Source: Felis catus (lineage: Eukaryota). From it: DNA of 64,000 bases. This document shows positions 1 to 45,689 of this stretch, in pieces. The notes below the pieces were generated by a model. The model had not been told where the DNA came from, did not search any database, and saw only the letters and a list, made by a program, of their open reading frames with translations. The stretch lies in contig NC_058371.1 of NCBI RefSeq assembly GCF_018350175.1, forward strand, positions 111,290,001 through 111,354,000, in the 5' to 3' direction. Positions within the stretch are counted from its first letter, which is position 1, and every line of letters starts with the position of its first letter. The position numbers and the translations under genes are program-made.

Positions 1-420
1 GCAGGATGCATGCAACTGACACTGAAGAGAAGATGTAGTTATTAATAGAAACAAAGTCTAGAGTAATGGCCATGGGAGTAGCTAGGTTGTTGTGACAACA
101 ACAATGAGGATTCATGGGTGATATAATCTGCTCACAGAGATCCTAAATGGGCAGTTTTTAGGAATGAGGGGGATTGGAAAATTGCAAGCAGCAATAAGGA
201 GCAATGAGGACATGTTCTCTGCTTCTAGGCCTAGTCCTGTGAGAACCATGGGAGACAAAATTAACTCCACTAAGGGAACGGGAGCAGTAGCAGTTTCCTC
301 AATGGAGAGCCAGGTTTCTCTTAAAGCGTGAAGGGGAGAAAAGCATTCAGACAGTACTTGCAGCATTAACATAGGGGATTTTGCTGGTGGCTGACTGAGT
401 TTTAGAGGATAGAGTGGAAG
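1..420 (-). mobile_element. Degenerate L2 LINE fragment (probable)
   Basis: Purine-rich decayed sequence resembling antisense L2 body; boundaries approximate. Confidence 0.35.
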
Positions 421-759
421 GATGTAAGAACTTGGGGAGAGATGGGAAAGGCAGACAGAATACGTTCACAGAGGCTAACAGGGATTCAACTGCAGGAGTT
501 AAGAGGCAGTGCAGCAGTCTAGGGGTGGCCTACATGGAGTAGGATAAAAGGCAGGGATGAGGTCAGTCCCGGTCGATTAAGGCTGATGATGGTGGTGAGG
601 CTGTGAATGTTGTAGGGGGAGAGAGGAGGGCTCTGGTGGAGGGGTGGGCTCTCTCAGGTTCTCACTGTCAGGAACCAATCAAGATGGATTTCAATCCAGA
701 TCTCCCCAGCTCCAGAAACAATGCCCTTTCCTCTCCACTGCATTTAAAGTGTAGACTAA

Positions 760-886
760 GGTCTAGCCTGAGAACTTGTTAGGAATGTGGACTCTCAGGC
801 CTCATTCCAGATCTACTGAATCTGAATCTGCATTTCCTCATGGTCTCCAGGTGATTCATATTCATGGTGGAGTTCGAGCAGCACTG
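760..886. mobile_element. MER5A/B-like hAT-Charlie MITE
   Basis: Motifs gaacttgttaggaatg..ctcaggcctcattccagatctactgaatctgaatctgcatt..ccaggtgattcatat..gagcagcactg resemble the MER5 consensus. Confidence 0.75.
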
Positions 887-16047: not shown

Positions 16048-16400
16048 GAATCTTAAATAGGCTCAATGCTGGGGCGCCTGGGTGGCTTGGTCGGTTAAGC
16101 GTCGGACTTCGGCTCAGGTCACGATCTCATGGTCCGTGAGTTCAAGCCCCGTGTTGGGCTCTGTGCTGACAGCTCAGAGCCTGGAGCCTGTTTCAGATTC
16201 TGTGTCTCCCTCTCTCTCTGCCCCTCCCCTATTCGTGCTCTGTCTCTCTCTGTCTCAAAAATAAATAAACGTTAAATTTTTTTTTTTTTTTAAATAGGCT
16301 CAATGCTTAATGCAGAGACCGACATGGGGCTTGGTCCCATGACCAAGCTGAGCCAAAATCAAGAGTCAGACCCTCAACTGACTGAGCTACCCAGGTGCCC
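16048..16400 (-). mobile_element. Older antisense Can-SINE, split by a younger SINE
   Basis: gaatcttaaataggctcaatgct (16048-16070) continues as taatgcagagaccgacatggggcttg..gagccaaaatcaagagtcagac..ctgagctacccaggtgccc (16308-16400). Confidence 0.85.
16071..16290 (+). mobile_element. Can-SINE (SINEC_Fc type), nested
   Basis: Full head and body; tail is mostly T; perfect TSD taaataggctcaatgct at 16054-16070 and 16291-16307. Confidence 0.97.
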
Positions 16401-22750: not shown

Positions 22751-22941
22751 CAAAAAGGTTAGCGAGGGAGGGAGCCAAAACATAAGAGACTCTTAAAAAC
22801 TGAGAACAAACTGAGGGTTGATGGAGGGTGGGAGAGAGGGGAGGATGGGTGATGGGTATTGAGGAGGGCACCTGTTGGGATGAGCACTGGGTGTTGTATG
22901 GAAACCAATTTGACAATAAATTGCATATTAAAACAATAAAA
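22751..22941 (+). mobile_element. 5'-truncated felid L1 3' UTR (L1_Fc-like)
   Basis: cataagagactcttaaaaactgagaacaaactgagggttgatgg..ggcacctgttgggatgagcactgggtgttgtatggaaaccaatttgacaataaa. Confidence 0.95.
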
Positions 22942-24712
22942 TCACTACTTTCTCTTAAAAAAAAATCCAATAATCACCCTCTAAGAGTTAATATCTTGGC
23001 TCAGTTAATTCATTCAGAAGTTGCATTCACTGATTTTAAACTAATTAAAGTCATCAATATGGATCTTGTGCATAATCCTGAAATTCCTAGTTTGGTATCT
23101 GCCTGTAGAGTCAAATACATAAATAAGATGCCAGAAATCCAATGTATTTACCTGGGCTACTACACAGTGGGAAGGAAGGAAGAAGACAACTCAAGAATAC
23201 TTGTGATTTCAATGCCTGGATTTAAAAGTGGTGTCACAATGCTGCTTTTCTTCTTCCCCTGAAATACTTTATTTTCTTAGTTATAATGATAAAGGCAAAT
23301 ATTTACTGAGAATTTATTTTTTATTAGGCACCTTAATATCTTGTTTAATCTATGGAAAAATGATGTGATTTACCTTTTCCAATTAACAGATAAGGAAAGA
23401 GAGGGTCAGAGTTATTGCAAGACTTTTTCAGGTACTGCAGCTACTCCATGAAAGGATTTCATAAGATTTTTCATAACTACATTTATGGAACTGGAGATAT
23501 GGAATAGATTGTAATGTAAATCTTATAACTTGACCAAGTGTTTTCTTGAAACTAAATGAGTCTATCAAACCAGTACACACTTGCCTTGTAGGGGTATTTC
23601 ACTTAAGAATGCTTTATAATTCAAATAATTTCAGATAATATAATTGAGATTTTCACATTTAGTTGTTACATTCAAATTTCCAGTAATGACTGAATATTCA
23701 TGGAGGATGGAGACCTAATCTTTGCTTTTACACTTGATGACTATCTTACATAAAAAAAAATCATATCATGGTCCGTACTTGCACACTTATCCGTAAAAAA
23801 TAGGAATGCATGCCTGTGTATTTTACTGTTGCAATTTGAAAAACAAACAAACAAACAATAAACAGAATTGTCTACTCTCTGAAAGATTAAACCAAATAAA
23901 GAAAAACTTTAACACTTTAAAGATGGGTTATCAGAAAATTTCAAGAGGTAATTAAGAGAATAAATGAACCAATGAACCACAGTAAATGTTGAGAATTTTT
24001 ATGTTTATGGAATAGTATAAAAGCAACAGAGCAGGTCTGACCTGGGGATACATATATGTATATTTTGGTCCATGGATGATTACTCATTTTAATTATCCAT
24101 TATTTTCTTAATATTTAGGAAATATCAATGTGGTCTTCTGCAATCTTTCCCAAATGAGTTATAAAACATATATTTGAAGAATGAAAAAAGGTTATTTGAA
24201 GGGAGATTAAACTTTAGTAGTGACTTGCCTTTCCATAAAGTTTTGATAACATATTTTAGAGAATGTTTTTCTCTTAGTTCAAATTTTGGTTCTGATGGTA
24301 TTGTGTATCACAAATTATTGAATAATACAAAAAATAGTTTTCCCCCCCAAAATACTTTTGCAAACAGCGCATAGCTTAATAAGTTAAAATTGTCTTCTCA
24401 GTGGGTCCTTATTCAGTGTCTGATATTCTGTTTGTGAACTAAGCAGTTTTGTCACTTTTCTTTTATCTCCTGTGATCTCTTTGGGATACATTTCACTGAC
24501 TATCCATTGATGTAATAAATTTAAGCCATTGTGGTCAATAAGGCAGTAAATAATACCTGTTGATTTTGATATTAGATGGCATGGGACGTAGAAAGTAAGT
24601 TTTTAAGGCAATAAGTGAATGAACATAAAGTTGAAGGGAGAATTATCAGTAATCAGTATATATTCTTGAAGTGGTAGTAAACATAAATTTGCTTGCACAA
24701 TTTATTATGGAT

Positions 24713-25017
24713 TTCAGTTCCTGCTTCTCGACTTTCCCATCTCTGTGACCCAGGTGAATTATTTAGTTTCCTAAAGCCTCAGGTTCCTTAAAGGAAGTAC
24801 TTAATTCATCATGTGTTATGACTAAACTAGATAATGTAGGTTTAGTGCTTAGTCCAGTACCCCTTAATATCTGCTTAGTAAGTGTGGTCGTTACATTTTT
24901 CCTAGCTATTGTTTTCTCCCTCCTGGCATACATTTCTTCTATCCCTCCACCTAGCCTAACTGGTCTACTTTTAAAGTTCTGCAGAAAGCCCTCATCCCTG
25001 TGAAGCCTTAACTAACT
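24713..25017 (+). repeat. Dispersed direct duplication, copy 1 (MIR 3' part plus non-MIR flank)
   Basis: Colinear with 26517-27064 once the SINE is removed; roughly 90% identical by eye. Confidence 0.95.
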
Positions 25018-26454: not shown

Positions 26455-26695
26455 GAAGTAGTAGTAGAATAAAGGTTAAGAGCTTGGCCTTGGGCATCAA
26501 ACAGACAGGGCTGAAATTCAGTTCCTGCTTGTGAACTTTCCTATCTCTGTGACCCAGGTGAACTACTTAGTTTCCTAAGCCTCAGGTTCCTTAAAGGAAG
26601 TACTTAATTCATTGTGTGTTATGACTAAACTAGATAATGTAGGTTTAGTGCTCAGTACAGTACCCCTTAATAGCTGCTTAGTAAGTGTGGTTATT
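26455..26695 (+). mobile_element. MIR, near full length; probable source of the duplication
   Basis: ggttaagagcttggccttgggcatcaaacagacagggctgaaattc..ctctgtgacccaggtga..agcctcaggttcct. Confidence 0.75.
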
Positions 26696-27064
26696 ACATT
26701 TTTTTCCTAGATACTGTTTTATCCCTCCTGGCATACTTTTCTTTTATCCCTCCACCTAGCTTAACTGGTCTAGTTTTTTTTTTTTTTTAATTTTTTTTAA
26801 CGTTTATTTATTTTTGACACAGAGAGAGACAGAGCATGAACAGGGGAGGGTCAGAGAGAGAGGGAGACACGGAATCTGAAACAGGCTCCAGGCTCTGAGC
26901 TATCAGCACAGAGCCCAACACGGTACTCGAACTCACGGACTGCAAGATCATGACCTGAGCCAAAGTCGGACGCTTAACTGACTGAGCCACCCAGGCGCCC
27001 CAATAACTGGTCTACTTTTAAAGTTCTGCACAAAGCCCTCATCCCTATGAAGCCTTAACTAACT
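26517..27064 (+). repeat. Dispersed direct duplication, copy 2 (SINE-interrupted)
   Basis: Same sequence as 24713-25017 with a SINE at 26774-27001. Confidence 0.95.
26774..27001 (-). mobile_element. Can-SINE (SINEC_Fc type)
   Basis: T tail, (GA)n, ccacccaggcgcccc end; TSD taactggtcta[g/c]ttttt. Confidence 0.97.
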
Positions 27065-30757: not shown

Positions 30758-31362
30758 ATAGGAGTCTTATAAATGCCTTGATGATGAAAAATGAGAATAG
30801 TATCCCTTTGGCCCTATGTATGAATATATGTATAATGTGTTGGGGTATTTTAACTCTTTGGTGCAATCCACAGTGGTAACACTTACACATTTCCATCTGA
30901 TTTTAGAGATGTATTTTGTAATGACTTTGGGATGAAGATAATACATATTAAAAATGGCAAAATCTTGTTCAATCTAAATCTTGACCATAGGAAGTAGAGG
31001 CAGATTGTCATGGATTAATTATATTTTTTATCTGATCAGAATTTACAAGCACATAATTGAAGTGTCCCAAATAGAAGTGTTACTTTCCAAATCCTCTAAA
31101 ACAGGATTTTGATATTTTTAACTGAATGCACATTATGGATAGGGATACGAATGGGAAATGTGGTATCATGAACAGATGATAAATTTCTCTTTCATGTATT
31201 GTTAGATATAGATCAGGCAAAAGTCTTAGCCTTTTCCAAGAACAAAATATTATTTTTTCCCTAAAATAATGCTAGCAAATAGAATTCAGATACTTTCTTT
31301 TTATAATCAGCCCAGGAATACAAATTTGAATGTGAAATGCTGTGTTTTCTTTGCCAAAACTT

Positions 31363-31584
31363 AAAAAATTTTTTTTAATTAACATTTATTTATTTTTTGA
31401 GAGTCGGAGAGAGACAGAGCACAAGCAGGGGAGGGGAAGAGAGAGGGAGACACAGAATTGGAAGCAGGCTCCAGGCTCTGAGCGGTCAGCACAGAGCTGG
31501 ATGCGGGGCTCAAACCCATGAACCGTGAGATCATGACCCGAGCTGAGGTCAGTCGCTTAACCAACTGAGCCACCCAGGCGCCCC
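31363..31584 (-). mobile_element. Can-SINE
   Basis: Full length; perfect TSD tctttgccaaaactt at 31348-31362 and 31585-31599. Confidence 0.97.
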
Positions 31585-31716
31585 TCTTTGCCAAAACTTT
31601 TGTCCTAACCAGAGAATTTTACTCATATTCAATACGACAATTCCTTAGAAAAACTGAATGCTATAGCTGAGTTTATTATAAAATAACTTTATGCTTCTTA
31701 TATGAGATACTCTTTT

Positions 31717-31932
31717 AAAAATTTTTTTAAATGTTTATTTATTTTTGAAAGAAACAGAGACAGAAAGCGAGTGGGTTAGGGACAGAGAGAGAGGGAGACA
31801 CAGAATCCGAAGCAGGCTCCAGGCTCTGAGCTGTCAGCACTAGAGCCTGATGCGGTGCTTGAACTCACCAACCTGAGATCATGACCTGAACAGAAGTTGG
31901 ACGCTCAACCAACTGAGCCACCCAGGAGCCCC
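31717..31932 (-). mobile_element. Can-SINE
   Basis: Full length; TSD ttatatgagata[c/t]tctttt. Confidence 0.96.
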
Positions 31933-31994
31933 TTATATGAGATATTCTTTACATTAGTAGTAATAGTGGCATGAGGAAGAAAATTCTGATTTTC

Positions 31995-32219
31995 TTTTTG
32001 TTTAAATTTTTTTTTTAACGTTTATTTATTTTTGAGACGGAGAGAGACAGAGCGTGAGCGGGGGAGGGGCAGAGAGAGAGGGAGACACAGAATCTGAAAC
32101 AGGCTCCAGGCTCTGAGCTGTCAGCACAGAGCTCGACGCGGGGCTCGAACCCACGGACCGCGAGATCATGACCTGAGCCGAAGTCGGATGCTTAACCAAC
32201 CAAGCCACCCAGGCACCCC
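31995..32219 (-). mobile_element. Can-SINE, CpG-rich and relatively young
   Basis: Full length; TSD gaaaattctgattttc at 31979-31994 and 32222-32237. Confidence 0.97.
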
Positions 32220-32605
32220 TTGAAAATTCTGATTTTCAATACTATTCAAATTTCTCTGTGTCTGTATCTTTGTAATGGTATAGCAGATGAATATAATGAT
32301 TTATAAATGGAAAATGATTGCCAAGGGACATGTATGGACATTTTTAGAAAAAAATATATCACTATTTAGCTGGGTTTTTCATAATAATAGATAAGATAAA
32401 ATTTCTTAAAAGTCATTATAATTGGCTTTCTATGAAACTATTATTATTTTAATTCTTAGTGTCTAATGACATTGGTGTTTTATTTTATATGATTTAAGTG
32501 ATCTAGAAGGTTGAAACATCAAACATATTATTTAAGTATCTTTTATTCTCTATTCTTTCTTCATAAAATTATCACCATTTGTGATTTTACATTTATTTCA
32601 TGATT

Positions 32606-32805
32606 AAAACATTTTTTGAATGTTTATTTATTTTTGAAGGAGAAAGAGACAGACTGTGAGCAGGGGAGGAGCAGAGAATCCAAAGTGGGCTGCAGGCTCT
32701 AAGTGGTCAGCACAGAGCCGGACCCAGTGTTTGAACTCATGAACTGTGAGATCGTGACCTGAGCCAAAGTTGGACGCGTAACTGACTGAGCCACCCAGGC
32801 ATCCC
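32606..32805 (-). mobile_element. Can-SINE, older
   Basis: Ends gccacccaggcatccc; TSD tatttcat[g/a]att. Confidence 0.95.
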
Positions 32806-33474
32806 TATTTCATAATTTTTTAAACTAATATTTGTATCTCAAATATAAACTAAGAATAGGAACTAGGTCTATTGTTTGCCAACTGTAGAATACTCACACT
32901 TAGTTTTTGACACATAGTAAGCCTTCAGTACATATTCTTGAATACATGTGAAAACAAAATACTTATAATGAATAAATTATCCTTTGAGACAGCTGCAATT
33001 TACCAAGGCAGAAATGAGGTCAGTGGCAGGAGAAGAAAAGGAAAGGTAAGAGTCTTTACTTCTTTCGCTATAAACAGATGGGACTTATTGGCCTATGACC
33101 TGTCCCATTTTGAGCAGGTTGTAGAATGCTGTCTTACCTAGGGCTTTTATTCATGATGATTTAAACCTGTGTTTATGAACACAGGAAGGAAAATGGTGAA
33201 GTTTCATGCTGTATAGAAAAATGTATCTCTGATTTGTAACTTTTGACAATTTTTGTGGTACAAATACTTTCACCAAGAATGATTTCAAATACCAAAGTGA
33301 TGTTACCAAATGCCAAGTTGGAAAGAGATATGCATGATGAGCTTTCTCCTGCAGAACTAGCACATCATTGTGAGAACATGTCTTTGAAAATCTACTTTTT
33401 CAACTTATTTTTCTTCTACTCCCACATGAAAGTTTATTCTAATAATACTGGACATCTGCTAGATTTATATTTGT

Positions 33475-43733: not shown

Positions 43734-44008
43734 GGAATTAGATATAACAAACAGGTAAGATGAGTGTTAATGAAAGTTTGTGCCAGAAGTTTCTTATTAG
43801 AAAGATATCTGAGTTTGCGTGCAGAGAATAAAAAATGAGTATAATTAAATTAAATAAAGATACCTCATGTAATAGAATATAACACAACCTTGAAAACAGA
43901 TGTGACAATGAAGGTGCAACTCTCTGATGAATGTAATAAAAGCCTGGAAGAGACTGATAATCTTTTTGTAAGTAGTATGCCCTGTTCCACAAAGGCAACA
44001 TATGTATT

Positions 44009-44375
44009 TTTTTTTTAAATATTTAAAAAAAATTTTTTTAATTAAAAAAAAAAAAAGATTCCAAAACTTACCAGCCACTTTTGTTTCTTTCAACAGCCCC
44101 GTGTAGTTACTAAGCCTTCATCCCCATCCACTTCAAATCCCAACCTCACATCCAGTTAACATCCCCATCCCCATCCCCGCCCATCCCCCGCCTGCCCAGC
44201 ACAGACCAGATGTGGGGGAGCAGGGCTGGGCTGTGCTCTCTCACACGCCCCTTTCCACACGGATCCCTGTCACTCTGGGGTGGGGCCAAGGAAAGGGAAG
44301 GAGCCTATTCGTATTGGGTTCCCATGGGCGTCACACCATCGCCCTGTGTCGAGGCTTCAGCTCTTCTGCCCCGTT
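44009..44375 (-). pseudogene. Retroposed non-repeat sequence of unknown source (processed transcript fragment or orphan transduction)
   Basis: Perfect 19-bp TSD caaaggcaacatatgtatt at 43990-44008 and 44376-44394; T run at left end is a minus-strand poly(A); GC- and CpG-rich body unlike flanks. Confidence 0.85.
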
Positions 44376-45689
44376 CAAAGGCAACATATGTATTAATCAC
44401 TCAAGTACCTACCCACTTTTTTAGTACGCCTTCTTAATTGCCCAAGAAGCTCTGTCAACCGTTAATGGGAAGCTAGTTTTACTTTCAGTACTAGACATAG
44501 AGAGAACAGGAAAGTTTTTGCAGTTCACTGATGACTTTGACTCCGTTGGCCAAATAGTTGCAGTGCCAGGCTTGATTCTTTCTGCTGGATGCCTGTCCAC
44601 TCTGTAAGATTGAGTCACTATGTATATATATGCTTATATATGATTCACTATCACTATAGCACAACCACTGGGCCAGGGTGACTGAGTCTGAAAGTCCTCC
44701 TATGTCAGTCTCACTTACTGTCTAACATATTACTCTCAGTTTTTGTTCAAACTTCAGCTAACAACCTAGACTCCCCCTTCACTTAGGGACTCCTTGTTCT
44801 TTACTCTTATCAGGCCCTAGTTGGAGCTACCATGGTCCTGGACTTCCTATGAAAATGATTTACCATCTCCTTAGTAATAGCTCTACTTATAAAAGAATGG
44901 GGAGTATTTCACTAACGTAGTCAAAAAGCACAGGCTATTTTTTATATCAATCTCCTTGGACCCCAGGTGCCTCCTTATTTTATATTCGCAACTTATACTC
45001 AAACTAGCTAGTATTCAACTACCCAGAGGGCAACTATATTTTGGATCTATGTACTAGTAGAGAAGAAAATGTTAGGTTTCTTGTGGTCTTTGAAGTGATG
45101 CCTATTGACCTAAATTATCATAATGCACCTGGCTTGCTAAAGGGATTGGGCTGAAATGCCCAGGCATACTGGCCTTTCCATACATGGTTTGGTCAAAAGA
45201 GGTAACCCCTTTCCTCAAATACCCTTCGTTTACTGTCATATTTTGGCCATCTGCATTGATGACACATTTCTGTGAATTTTTAGAGCATTTCCTCTACCTT
45301 TGTTCTTTGCGATTTTTAACCCACTGAGGAAAACTAGCCCAGGTTATTATTTTTTGCTGAATAATGTGGTGATGATCAGTATATATAATTGGTAAGGCTG
45401 ACACATTTGAGGGCTGTGCTGCTAGGGATCCTGTCTTGCTACTTGACTTCTAAGTGTGGTTCAGAGCAGGCACTTCTGAGACTATGTGAGAACAAGATGT
45501 GTCTTTTGTGATGGTGACCAGGACCTTGAAAAGTTAGATACCATCACCATTTCATGGAACTTAAACTTGGACTTTTTATCTTCTTTCCAAAGGATATTGC
45601 CATTTCTCATTCTGTTCTCTACTTTTTTTTTTTTTCTGCACTTATAGGAGTAAGTCTTTATCTTTGAACATCCTCCCACCCCTTTTTAG

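What the first reader, a model, noticed from the sequence alone, without database searches (positions are those of the whole stretch)
43990..44394. Orphan retroposed 367-bp GC-rich insertion of unknown origin (best novel lead)
Seen: perfect 19-bp TSD; minus-strand target TT/AATA resembling the L1 endonuclease consensus TT/AAAA; terminal A run with ATTAAA about 20 nt upstream; about 10 intact CpGs in a CpG-poor window, so likely recent; no resemblance to a repeat I recognise and no ORF. On the minus strand it carries a strong splice-donor-like CTG|GTAAGT (about 44066-44074). Its last ~40 nt (44017-44056) resemble an antisense Can-SINE tail. Inference: the source RNA read past a donor and was polyadenylated inside an antisense SINE tail, then was copied by L1. 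Alternatives are an orphan L1 3' transduction, a 3' UTR retrocopy or an undescribed low-copy retroposon.
Basis: partly seen in the sequence, partly recalled or inferred. Interest (0 to 1): 0.75.

Follow-up and report, generated by a model that had tools for sequence, protein, structure and literature searches.

The report
Truncated retrocopy of non-coding RNA end
A 367-base stretch flanked by a perfect 19-base duplication shares sequence with a second locus elsewhere and was likely pasted here by the LINE-1 copying machinery from the tail end of a likely non-coding RNA that possibly ended inside a backwards SINE tail; it is real, but most likely an ordinary by-product of retrotransposition rather than a new mobile element.

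Summary
There is an exact 19-bp duplication (43990-44008 and 44376-44394; 0 of 500 simulations reach 19), a TT/AATA nick site, an 8-10-nt A tail, ATTAAA 20 nt before it, and 10 CpGs. The insert is not parentless. A profile search of its plus-strand frames returned one machine-called ORF (P0005, one 1,230-nt Logan contig). It matches 44233-44373 at 46 of 47 residues, then leaves the window sequence at the insert/TSD boundary and runs about 720 nt into other, non-coding-looking DNA, with no detectable young L1 3' end or Can-SINE. So a second, longer locus exists and this copy is 5'-truncated and young. The source gene was not named. The antisense Can-SINE tail is plausible but only modestly supported (13 of 1000 shuffles; the tract is near-palindromic). 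ATTAAA placement alone is weak evidence (912 of 5000 shuffles). Best reading: a truncated L1-made retrocopy of a Pol II transcript's non-coding 3' end (0.5). Main rival: orphan L1 3' transduction (0.3). An ordinary kind; low interest.

The parts
43990..44008 (-). 3' copy of the 19-bp target-site duplication
   Evidence: exact repeat; chance test
44009..44016 (-). short poly(A) tail (8 nt; 10 with two TSD bases)
   Evidence: sequence
44017..44056 (+). A/T tract resembling a Can-SINE tail lying antisense to the retroposed RNA (inferred; no SINE body present)
   Evidence: score 43.7 against 11 window SINE tails, reached by 13 of 1000 shuffles; the opposite strand scores 34.0, reached by 39 of 1000 of its own shuffles; 31-nt 93.5% match to a window SINE tail
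44037..44042 (-). ATTAAA, candidate poly(A) signal, preceded by a U13 run and ending 20 nt before the tail
   Evidence: chance placement 912 of 5000
44066..44074 (-). consensus-like 5' splice site CTG|GTAAGT, left unspliced in the copy; use not shown
44057..44375 (-). 319-bp GC-rich (57%) unique core copied from the source locus, 5'-truncated
44233..44373 (+). part shared with the second locus: P0005 residues 1-47 (46 of 47, reading its GTG start as M; one Gly-to-Cys change at 44284); divergence begins at codon 44374-44376
44367..44375 (-). first 9 nt of the insert; source-encoded, and 8 of 9 identical to target bases 43986-43978 just beyond the TSD
43978..43986 (-). target bases matching the insert's 5' end at 8 of 9 (possible guide for 5' attachment)
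   Evidence: 6 such matches among 125,422 window positions, both members of this pair included
44376..44394 (-). 5' copy of the 19-bp target-site duplication; L1-endonuclease-like site TT/AATA at 44394/44395

Best explanation
The 367-bp insert sits between two identical 19-bp repeats and shares its core with a longer second locus, and it is likely a 5'-truncated copy, made by LINE-1 target-primed reverse transcription, of the likely non-coding 3' end of a cellular Pol II transcript that was probably cut and polyadenylated 20 nt after an ATTAAA inside a possibly antisense Can-SINE tail. Steps: (1) Pol II reads the source locus on the strand that is minus here, through at least about 1.1 kb of non-coding-looking DNA (locus shown by P0005; transcription and strand inferred). 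(2) It passes a donor-like site unspliced and meets U13-AUUAAA; if the tract is a SINE tail, the missing SINE would supply a U-rich element after the cut (inferred). (3) L1 ORF2p nicks 5'-TATT/AA here and primes on the poly(A) tail (site and tail shown; enzyme inferred from established L1 biology). (4) Copying stops after about 360 nt, and the cDNA end joins the target 19 bp from the first nick, perhaps helped by an 8 of 9 match just beyond it (junction shown; its role inferred). (5) The copy has no promoter, ORF or host exon that was found, and is probably inert.
For: TSD, nick site and tail. Second locus: hmmsearch of 1.84 billion representatives gave 3 hits, of which P0005 matches the insert at 46 of 47 residues and departs at codon 44374-44376, the boundary set independently by the TSD. 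It comes from one 1,230-nt Logan contig. Its other ~240 residues have no Pfam family, no close Atlas cluster (best 0.77), 5.2% Trp as expected if TGA was read through, and no match to the window's L1 3' end or SINEs at E<0.01, whereas planted 120-nt pieces of either were found in 72 of 72 trials at 5-20% divergence. 5' truncation down to the 3' UTR is common in processed pseudogenes (PMC3996531, passages), and trans-mobilised copies seldom have short TSDs (PMC2912911, passages). Antisense SINE tails are known to feed poly(A) sites (Alu: PMC2553571, passages).
Against: The source gene or transcript was not named. No protein C-terminus matches either plausible minus-strand frame, so it is not anchored to a known mRNA. 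Expression evidence is thin: only 4 RNA or guessed-RNA runs hold 0.63-0.81 of the words, three of them metatranscriptome assemblies of 1.1-1.9 Gb that may hold it as DNA, and none was laid. The SINE-tail match is modest and the tract scores on both strands; none of the 10 SINE-tail motifs in the window has the insert's AAATATT spelling. The ATTAAA position arises in 18% of shuffles. In dog, SINE-supplied signals at 3' UTR ends are overwhelmingly sense-oriented (92% of Can-SINEs near 3' ends; PMC11699766, passages). A strong donor 29 nt upstream of the signal would be expected to suppress cleavage (U1 telescripting, recalled). P0005 could be a longer sibling copy rather than the parent. The empty allele was not seen.
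Confidence: 0.5

Rival explanations
1. Orphan L1 3' transduction: an active L1 upstream of the source read through its own poly(A) signal, ended at this ATTAAA, and the copy was truncated so early that no L1 sequence came along.
For: Same hallmarks. It needs no annotated gene, which fits the failure to find a coding end and the thin RNA signal. Orphan transductions are defined this way (PMC7058536, passages). In dog, 24 of 27 mapped transduction sources had no adjacent L1 in the reference because the parent is polymorphic (PMC13141329, passages), so a missing L1 upstream does not exclude it.
Against: No young L1 3' end in the ~720 nt upstream covered by P0005, so the transduction would exceed about 1.1 kb or the L1 would be absent from that sample. 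Only about 1.8% of dimorphic dog L1s carry mappable transductions (PMC13141329, passages; cat not measured).
Confidence: 0.3
2. Twin-primed inversion: the RNA ran on the plus strand; the first primer copied only poly(A), and the second target end primed internally at 44375, so the whole core is inverted.
For: The 8 of 9 match between the target beyond the TSD and the insert's 5' end. Inverted copies are common and depend on microhomology (PMC2912911, PMC3996531, passages). The A/T tract would then be a sense SINE tail. P0005 residues just past the junction (LNK) can encode a plus-strand AATAAA (inference).
Against: It needs a non-inverted part of only 8 A plus a deletion of more than 100 nt. 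No microhomology at the junction base itself if the source codon is TTA/TTG. The 8 of 9 match fits ordinary 5' attachment equally well. The well-placed ATTAAA would be coincidence (18%).
Confidence: 0.08
3. A member of an undescribed low-copy retroposon family, or of a catalogued repeat that the first reader did not recognise.
For: Dfam and Repbase could not be searched here, and copy number was not measured.
Against: The second locus continues into unrelated non-coding-looking DNA instead of ending at the same boundary. No second copy in 64 kb, no look-alike in earlier windows, no Rfam family, no stable fold (z -0.67).
Confidence: 0.05
4. No true 3' processing: the A run is templated (internal priming on a genomic A tract of a nascent RNA), or the segment is a DNA-level duplication captured at a break, with the tract being a plain A/T microsatellite.
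For: The tail is only 8-10 nt and completes a perfect 24-nt palindrome. The signal's placement is weak evidence.
Against: A 19-bp TSD plus an endonuclease-like site plus a tail at the nicked end is the TPRT signature. If the tract is an antisense SINE tail, the source would continue with T-rich, not A-rich, sequence (window SINE tails).
Confidence: 0.07

Closest known systems
5'-truncated L1-mediated processed pseudogenes / mRNA retrocopies (PMC2912911, PMC3996531, passages; canid retroCNVs PMC9435743, search listing only)
   Same: Long TSD, TT/AAAA-like nick, poly(A) tail, 5' truncation, a longer source locus elsewhere
   Different: No exon junction or coding sequence was found, the parent gene is unnamed, and a donor-like site is retained unspliced
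Orphan L1 3' transductions (PMC7058536; canine 'parentless' transductions, PMC13141329 and PMC13756887, passages)
   Same: Unique non-coding DNA with TSD and poly(A), no L1 body
   Different: No source L1 seen in the ~720 nt upstream; further upstream untested
SINE-derived poly(A) sites (dog Can-SINE, PMC11699766; human Alu/MIR, PMC2553571, passages)
   Same: RNA end proposed to fall in a SINE tail
   Different: Here the tail would be antisense and would supply the hexamer itself (ATTAAA); dog consensus tails carry AATAAA only on the sense strand, and antisense Alu tails supply downstream T-rich elements

Membership tests
L1-mediated (TPRT) insertion | target-site duplication of about 7-20 bp | tested here: met
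   19 bp exact; 0 of 500 simulations
L1-mediated (TPRT) insertion | endonuclease site near 5'-TTTT/AA | tested here: met
   TATT/AA, 5 of 6
L1-mediated (TPRT) insertion | 3' poly(A) at the nicked end | tested here: met
   8-10 nt, short
L1-mediated (TPRT) insertion | empty site in other individuals or species | not tested
   no genome held; no reads were laid on the locus
Processed pseudogene / retrocopy | a source locus elsewhere that extends past the 5' junction | tested here: met
   P0005, 46 of 47 residues, diverges at the junction; one contig only
Processed pseudogene / retrocopy | source is a transcribed gene and the copy ends at its poly(A) site | tested here: inconclusive
   RNA-run shares 0.63-0.81, unlaid and possibly DNA; no protein end found
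Processed pseudogene / retrocopy | removed introns | not testable with these tools
   copy appears to lie within one exon or unspliced RNA; parent DNA not retrievable
Orphan L1 3' transduction | no L1 sequence in the insert | tested here: met
   no match of the core to the window, which holds an L1 3' end near 22776-22940 (the L1 label is recalled)
Orphan L1 3' transduction | source lies downstream of an active L1 on the same strand | tested here: inconclusive
   none within ~720 nt; further upstream and polymorphic L1s untested
Can-SINE-derived poly(A) site | tract is the tail of a Can-SINE at the source | tested here: inconclusive
   13 of 1000 shuffles reach the score and 15 of 5000 start with the tail motif, but the other strand also scores, 39 of 1000; parent 3' flank unseen
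Can-SINE-derived poly(A) site | 3'-end reads at the site | not tested
New retroposon family | multiple dispersed copies with shared ends | tested here: inconclusive
   1 copy in 64 kb; the one other locus seen does not share the 5' end; no genome-wide count
Catalogued repeat (Dfam/Repbase) | match to a consensus | not testable with these tools
   no such library available; Rfam negative

The most novel reading that the evidence does not exclude
The copy is a germ-line fossil of a felid-specific transcript end built wholly inside an antisense Can-SINE tail (U13, AUUAAA, cut site and downstream U-rich element all from the SINE), used despite a strong upstream splice donor. The mixed A/T tails of cat SINEs could then create poly(A) sites in the orientation usually thought harmless, truncating transcripts at intronic antisense SINEs.
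Probability: 0.3. Interest if true: 0.4.

Novelty: new member of a known kind. Interest (0 to 1): 0.2.

Why it matters
As a truncated retrocopy or orphan transduction it is one of many such insertions, useful at most as a presence/absence marker in cats or as a tag for an active L1. It would matter more only if the source proved to end in an antisense Can-SINE tail, because dog data suggest that SINE-supplied signals are nearly all sense-oriented; one locus would be an example, not a new rule.

Tried and rejected
No whole genome is held, so no direct BLASTN was possible.

Coding-end idea: minus-strand frames ending in 14 and 22 residues found nothing in the PDB (2 chance hits to a designed protein; 0) or among 5.8 billion proteins (0 candidates; 16 candidates, none at E<=10). 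Whether that collection holds felid proteins well was not controlled. The alignment of three plus frames gave 95 candidates, none at E<=10. 0 of 9 junction or internal ORFs are in the collection by exact match.

P0004 and P0006 are repeat-rich unrelated proteins and were dropped.

Exact DNA patterns: 0 hits in viral contigs and 0 in metagenome contigs. P0005 as query: 20, 0 and 10 pattern matches in metagenome, viral and prokaryote genome contigs, none confirmed. A viral or microbial origin is therefore unsupported.

A 31-bp TSD with a deletion was considered and rejected, because P0005 shows the nine bases are source-encoded. Structured RNA: z -0.67; Rfam matches far below threshold.

Host gene: one weak exon candidate; 25 of 26 frames had no Pfam family, and the other was below its cut-off. 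No host gene was found.

Two 'feline metagenome' runs with shares 0.13 and 0.09 are too small to count. The FA-SAT satellite came to mind from recall and was not tested. Earlier-finding look-ups near the site, by sequence and by words gave nothing.

Full report
Setting. The window carries 18 matches to one of its own Can-SINE-like copies and is 34% GC with CpG O/E 0.16. No exon or host gene was found, and no whole genome is held.

Observation. The repeat at 43990-44008 and 44376-44394 is exact over 19 nt. The longest comparable repeat in 500 simulated 3-kb sequences was 15 nt. SINEs in the window have flanking repeats of 7-18 nt found by the same logic (15 copies). The insert is 367 bp, 50% GC, with 10 CpGs. 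On the minus strand it ends in U13, ATTAAA, 20 further A/T bases and an 8-10-nt A run, and the reconstructed target is TT/AATA. This is the signature of L1 target-primed reverse transcription as described in PMC2912911 (12 of 20 passages seen). The core has no second copy in the window, no Rfam family and no unusual fold (23 of 100 shuffles fold as well).

A second locus exists. Three stop-free plus-strand frames were pooled and searched against 1,835,955,588 representative proteins, giving 3 hits. Two are repeat-rich and unrelated. The third, P0005 (289 aa), equals the window's frame from 44233 for 47 residues, with one Gly-to-Cys change at 44284 and the GTG start read as M. It then departs at codon 44374-44376: 11 of the next 13 residues differ. 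The TSD had fixed the 5' junction at 44375/44376 independently. P0005 is a one-member cluster from one 1,230-nt Logan contig. Its 15 Trp in 289 residues (5.2%, against about 1.6% expected under the standard code and 3.2% with TGA read through), its lack of a Pfam family and its weak Atlas scores suggest a machine-called frame over non-coding DNA. Residues 76-112 resemble the TGAA-repeat end of an ancient MIR/L2 element; this is recalled and not tested against a library. The ~720 nt upstream show no match to the window's L1 3' end or SINEs, while planted 120-nt pieces of either were found in 72 of 72 trials. That control covers only repeats within 20% of the window's own copies. Limits: one contig, seen only as protein, species unknown, and possibly a longer sibling copy rather than the parent.

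Age and spread. One forced difference among 71 positions fixed by the amino acids (141 nt) is a lower bound near 1%, which points to an event within the cat radiation (inference). The core is held at share 1.00 by 14 of 24 listed runs, all genome-sized and from one organism. Eight are flagged as a possible source of this DNA, leaving 6 runs from 3 studies. These runs cannot tell the parent from the copy. Four RNA or guessed-RNA runs hold 0.63-0.81, the share expected from 2-4 differences or from partial cover; three are very large metatranscriptome assemblies that may hold it as DNA. No reads were laid, so expression, strand, 3' end and the empty allele remain open.

The 3' tract. Read on the plus strand, 44017-44056 begins like the window's SINE tails and scores 43.7 against 11 of them (13 of 1000 shuffles reach this; 15 of 5000 start with the motif). 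The other strand also scores above most of its own shuffles (39 of 1000). The motif has 16 hits in the window: 10 at SINE tails, 2 in this tract, 4 elsewhere. None of the 10 shares the insert's spelling. The antisense reading is the more economical, because cleavage would explain the missing SINE body. Of 15 window SINE ends, 14 carry sense AATAAA, none antisense AATAAA and 2 antisense ATTAAA nearby, so this would be an occasional tail variant. In dog, Can-SINE consensus tails carry AATAAA only on the sense strand and 92% of those near 3' ends are sense (PMC11699766, 10 of 10 passages). Antisense Alu tails supply downstream T-rich elements (PMC2553571, 12 of 14 passages). Feliform SINEs end in poly A/T tails (PMC4084570, passages). 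I put the SINE-tail origin a little above even. The ATTAAA position alone is weak evidence (912 of 5000 shuffles), and the donor is strong but unproven.

The 5' junction. The first nine insert bases match the target 3-11 nt beyond the TSD at 8 of 9; the window has 6 such matches in 125,422 positions, both members of this pair included (noticed after the fact). Since the source encodes these bases, a longer decayed TSD is rejected. The match may have guided end-joining, as microhomology often does (PMC2912911), but it fits twin priming as well (PMC3996531, 12 of 14 passages).

Mechanism and rivals. That this is a TPRT copy of a longer locus I put near 0.9. Which RNA carried it is unresolved: the non-coding 3' end of a cellular transcript (0.5), or read-through from an L1 (0.3). 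Orphan transductions are well described (PMC7058536, 10 passages). In dog most transduction sources lack an adjacent L1 in the reference, 24 of 27, though only about 1.8% of dimorphic L1s carry one (PMC13141329, 12 of 13 passages; PMC13756887, 7 passages). Twin priming (0.08), templated A or DNA capture (0.07) and a family (0.05) are minor. No protein end matched.

Novelty. Seven literature searches listed no paper on this locus or on a catalogue of felid orphan insertions. The library lacks most subscription journals, and supplementary lists of cat structural variants were not examined and may contain it. The kind is known; this is a new member. Interest 0.2.

Noticed in passing
window 24713-25017 and 26517-27064: A segment of about 300 bp is duplicated about 1.8 kb downstream (many exact 14-38-nt matches); the second copy is interrupted by a young SINE (26776-27001) with an 11-nt TSD.
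   Followed up: no
window 1-800: GC-richer stretch with open frames that recall a decayed retroviral pol fragment (recalled resemblance only); Pfam gave no match for three frames.
   Followed up: partly
window 16053-16307: Young SINE with an 18-bp TSD whose tail is a T run rather than an A run, showing how variable these A/T tails are.
   Followed up: no
window 22776-22965: Short young L1 3'-end fragment on the plus strand (label recalled), used here as a control.
   Followed up: partly
window 44009-44032: The A tail and the end of the tract form a perfect 24-nt palindrome; probably a by-product of A/T runs.
   Followed up: partly
window 31330-32810: Cluster of four SINE copies in the same orientation within 1.5 kb.
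   Followed up: no
window 44253-44375 and on to 44009 (minus, frame starting 44375): All four stops in this frame across the insert are TGA; no protein match; likely chance.
   Followed up: partly
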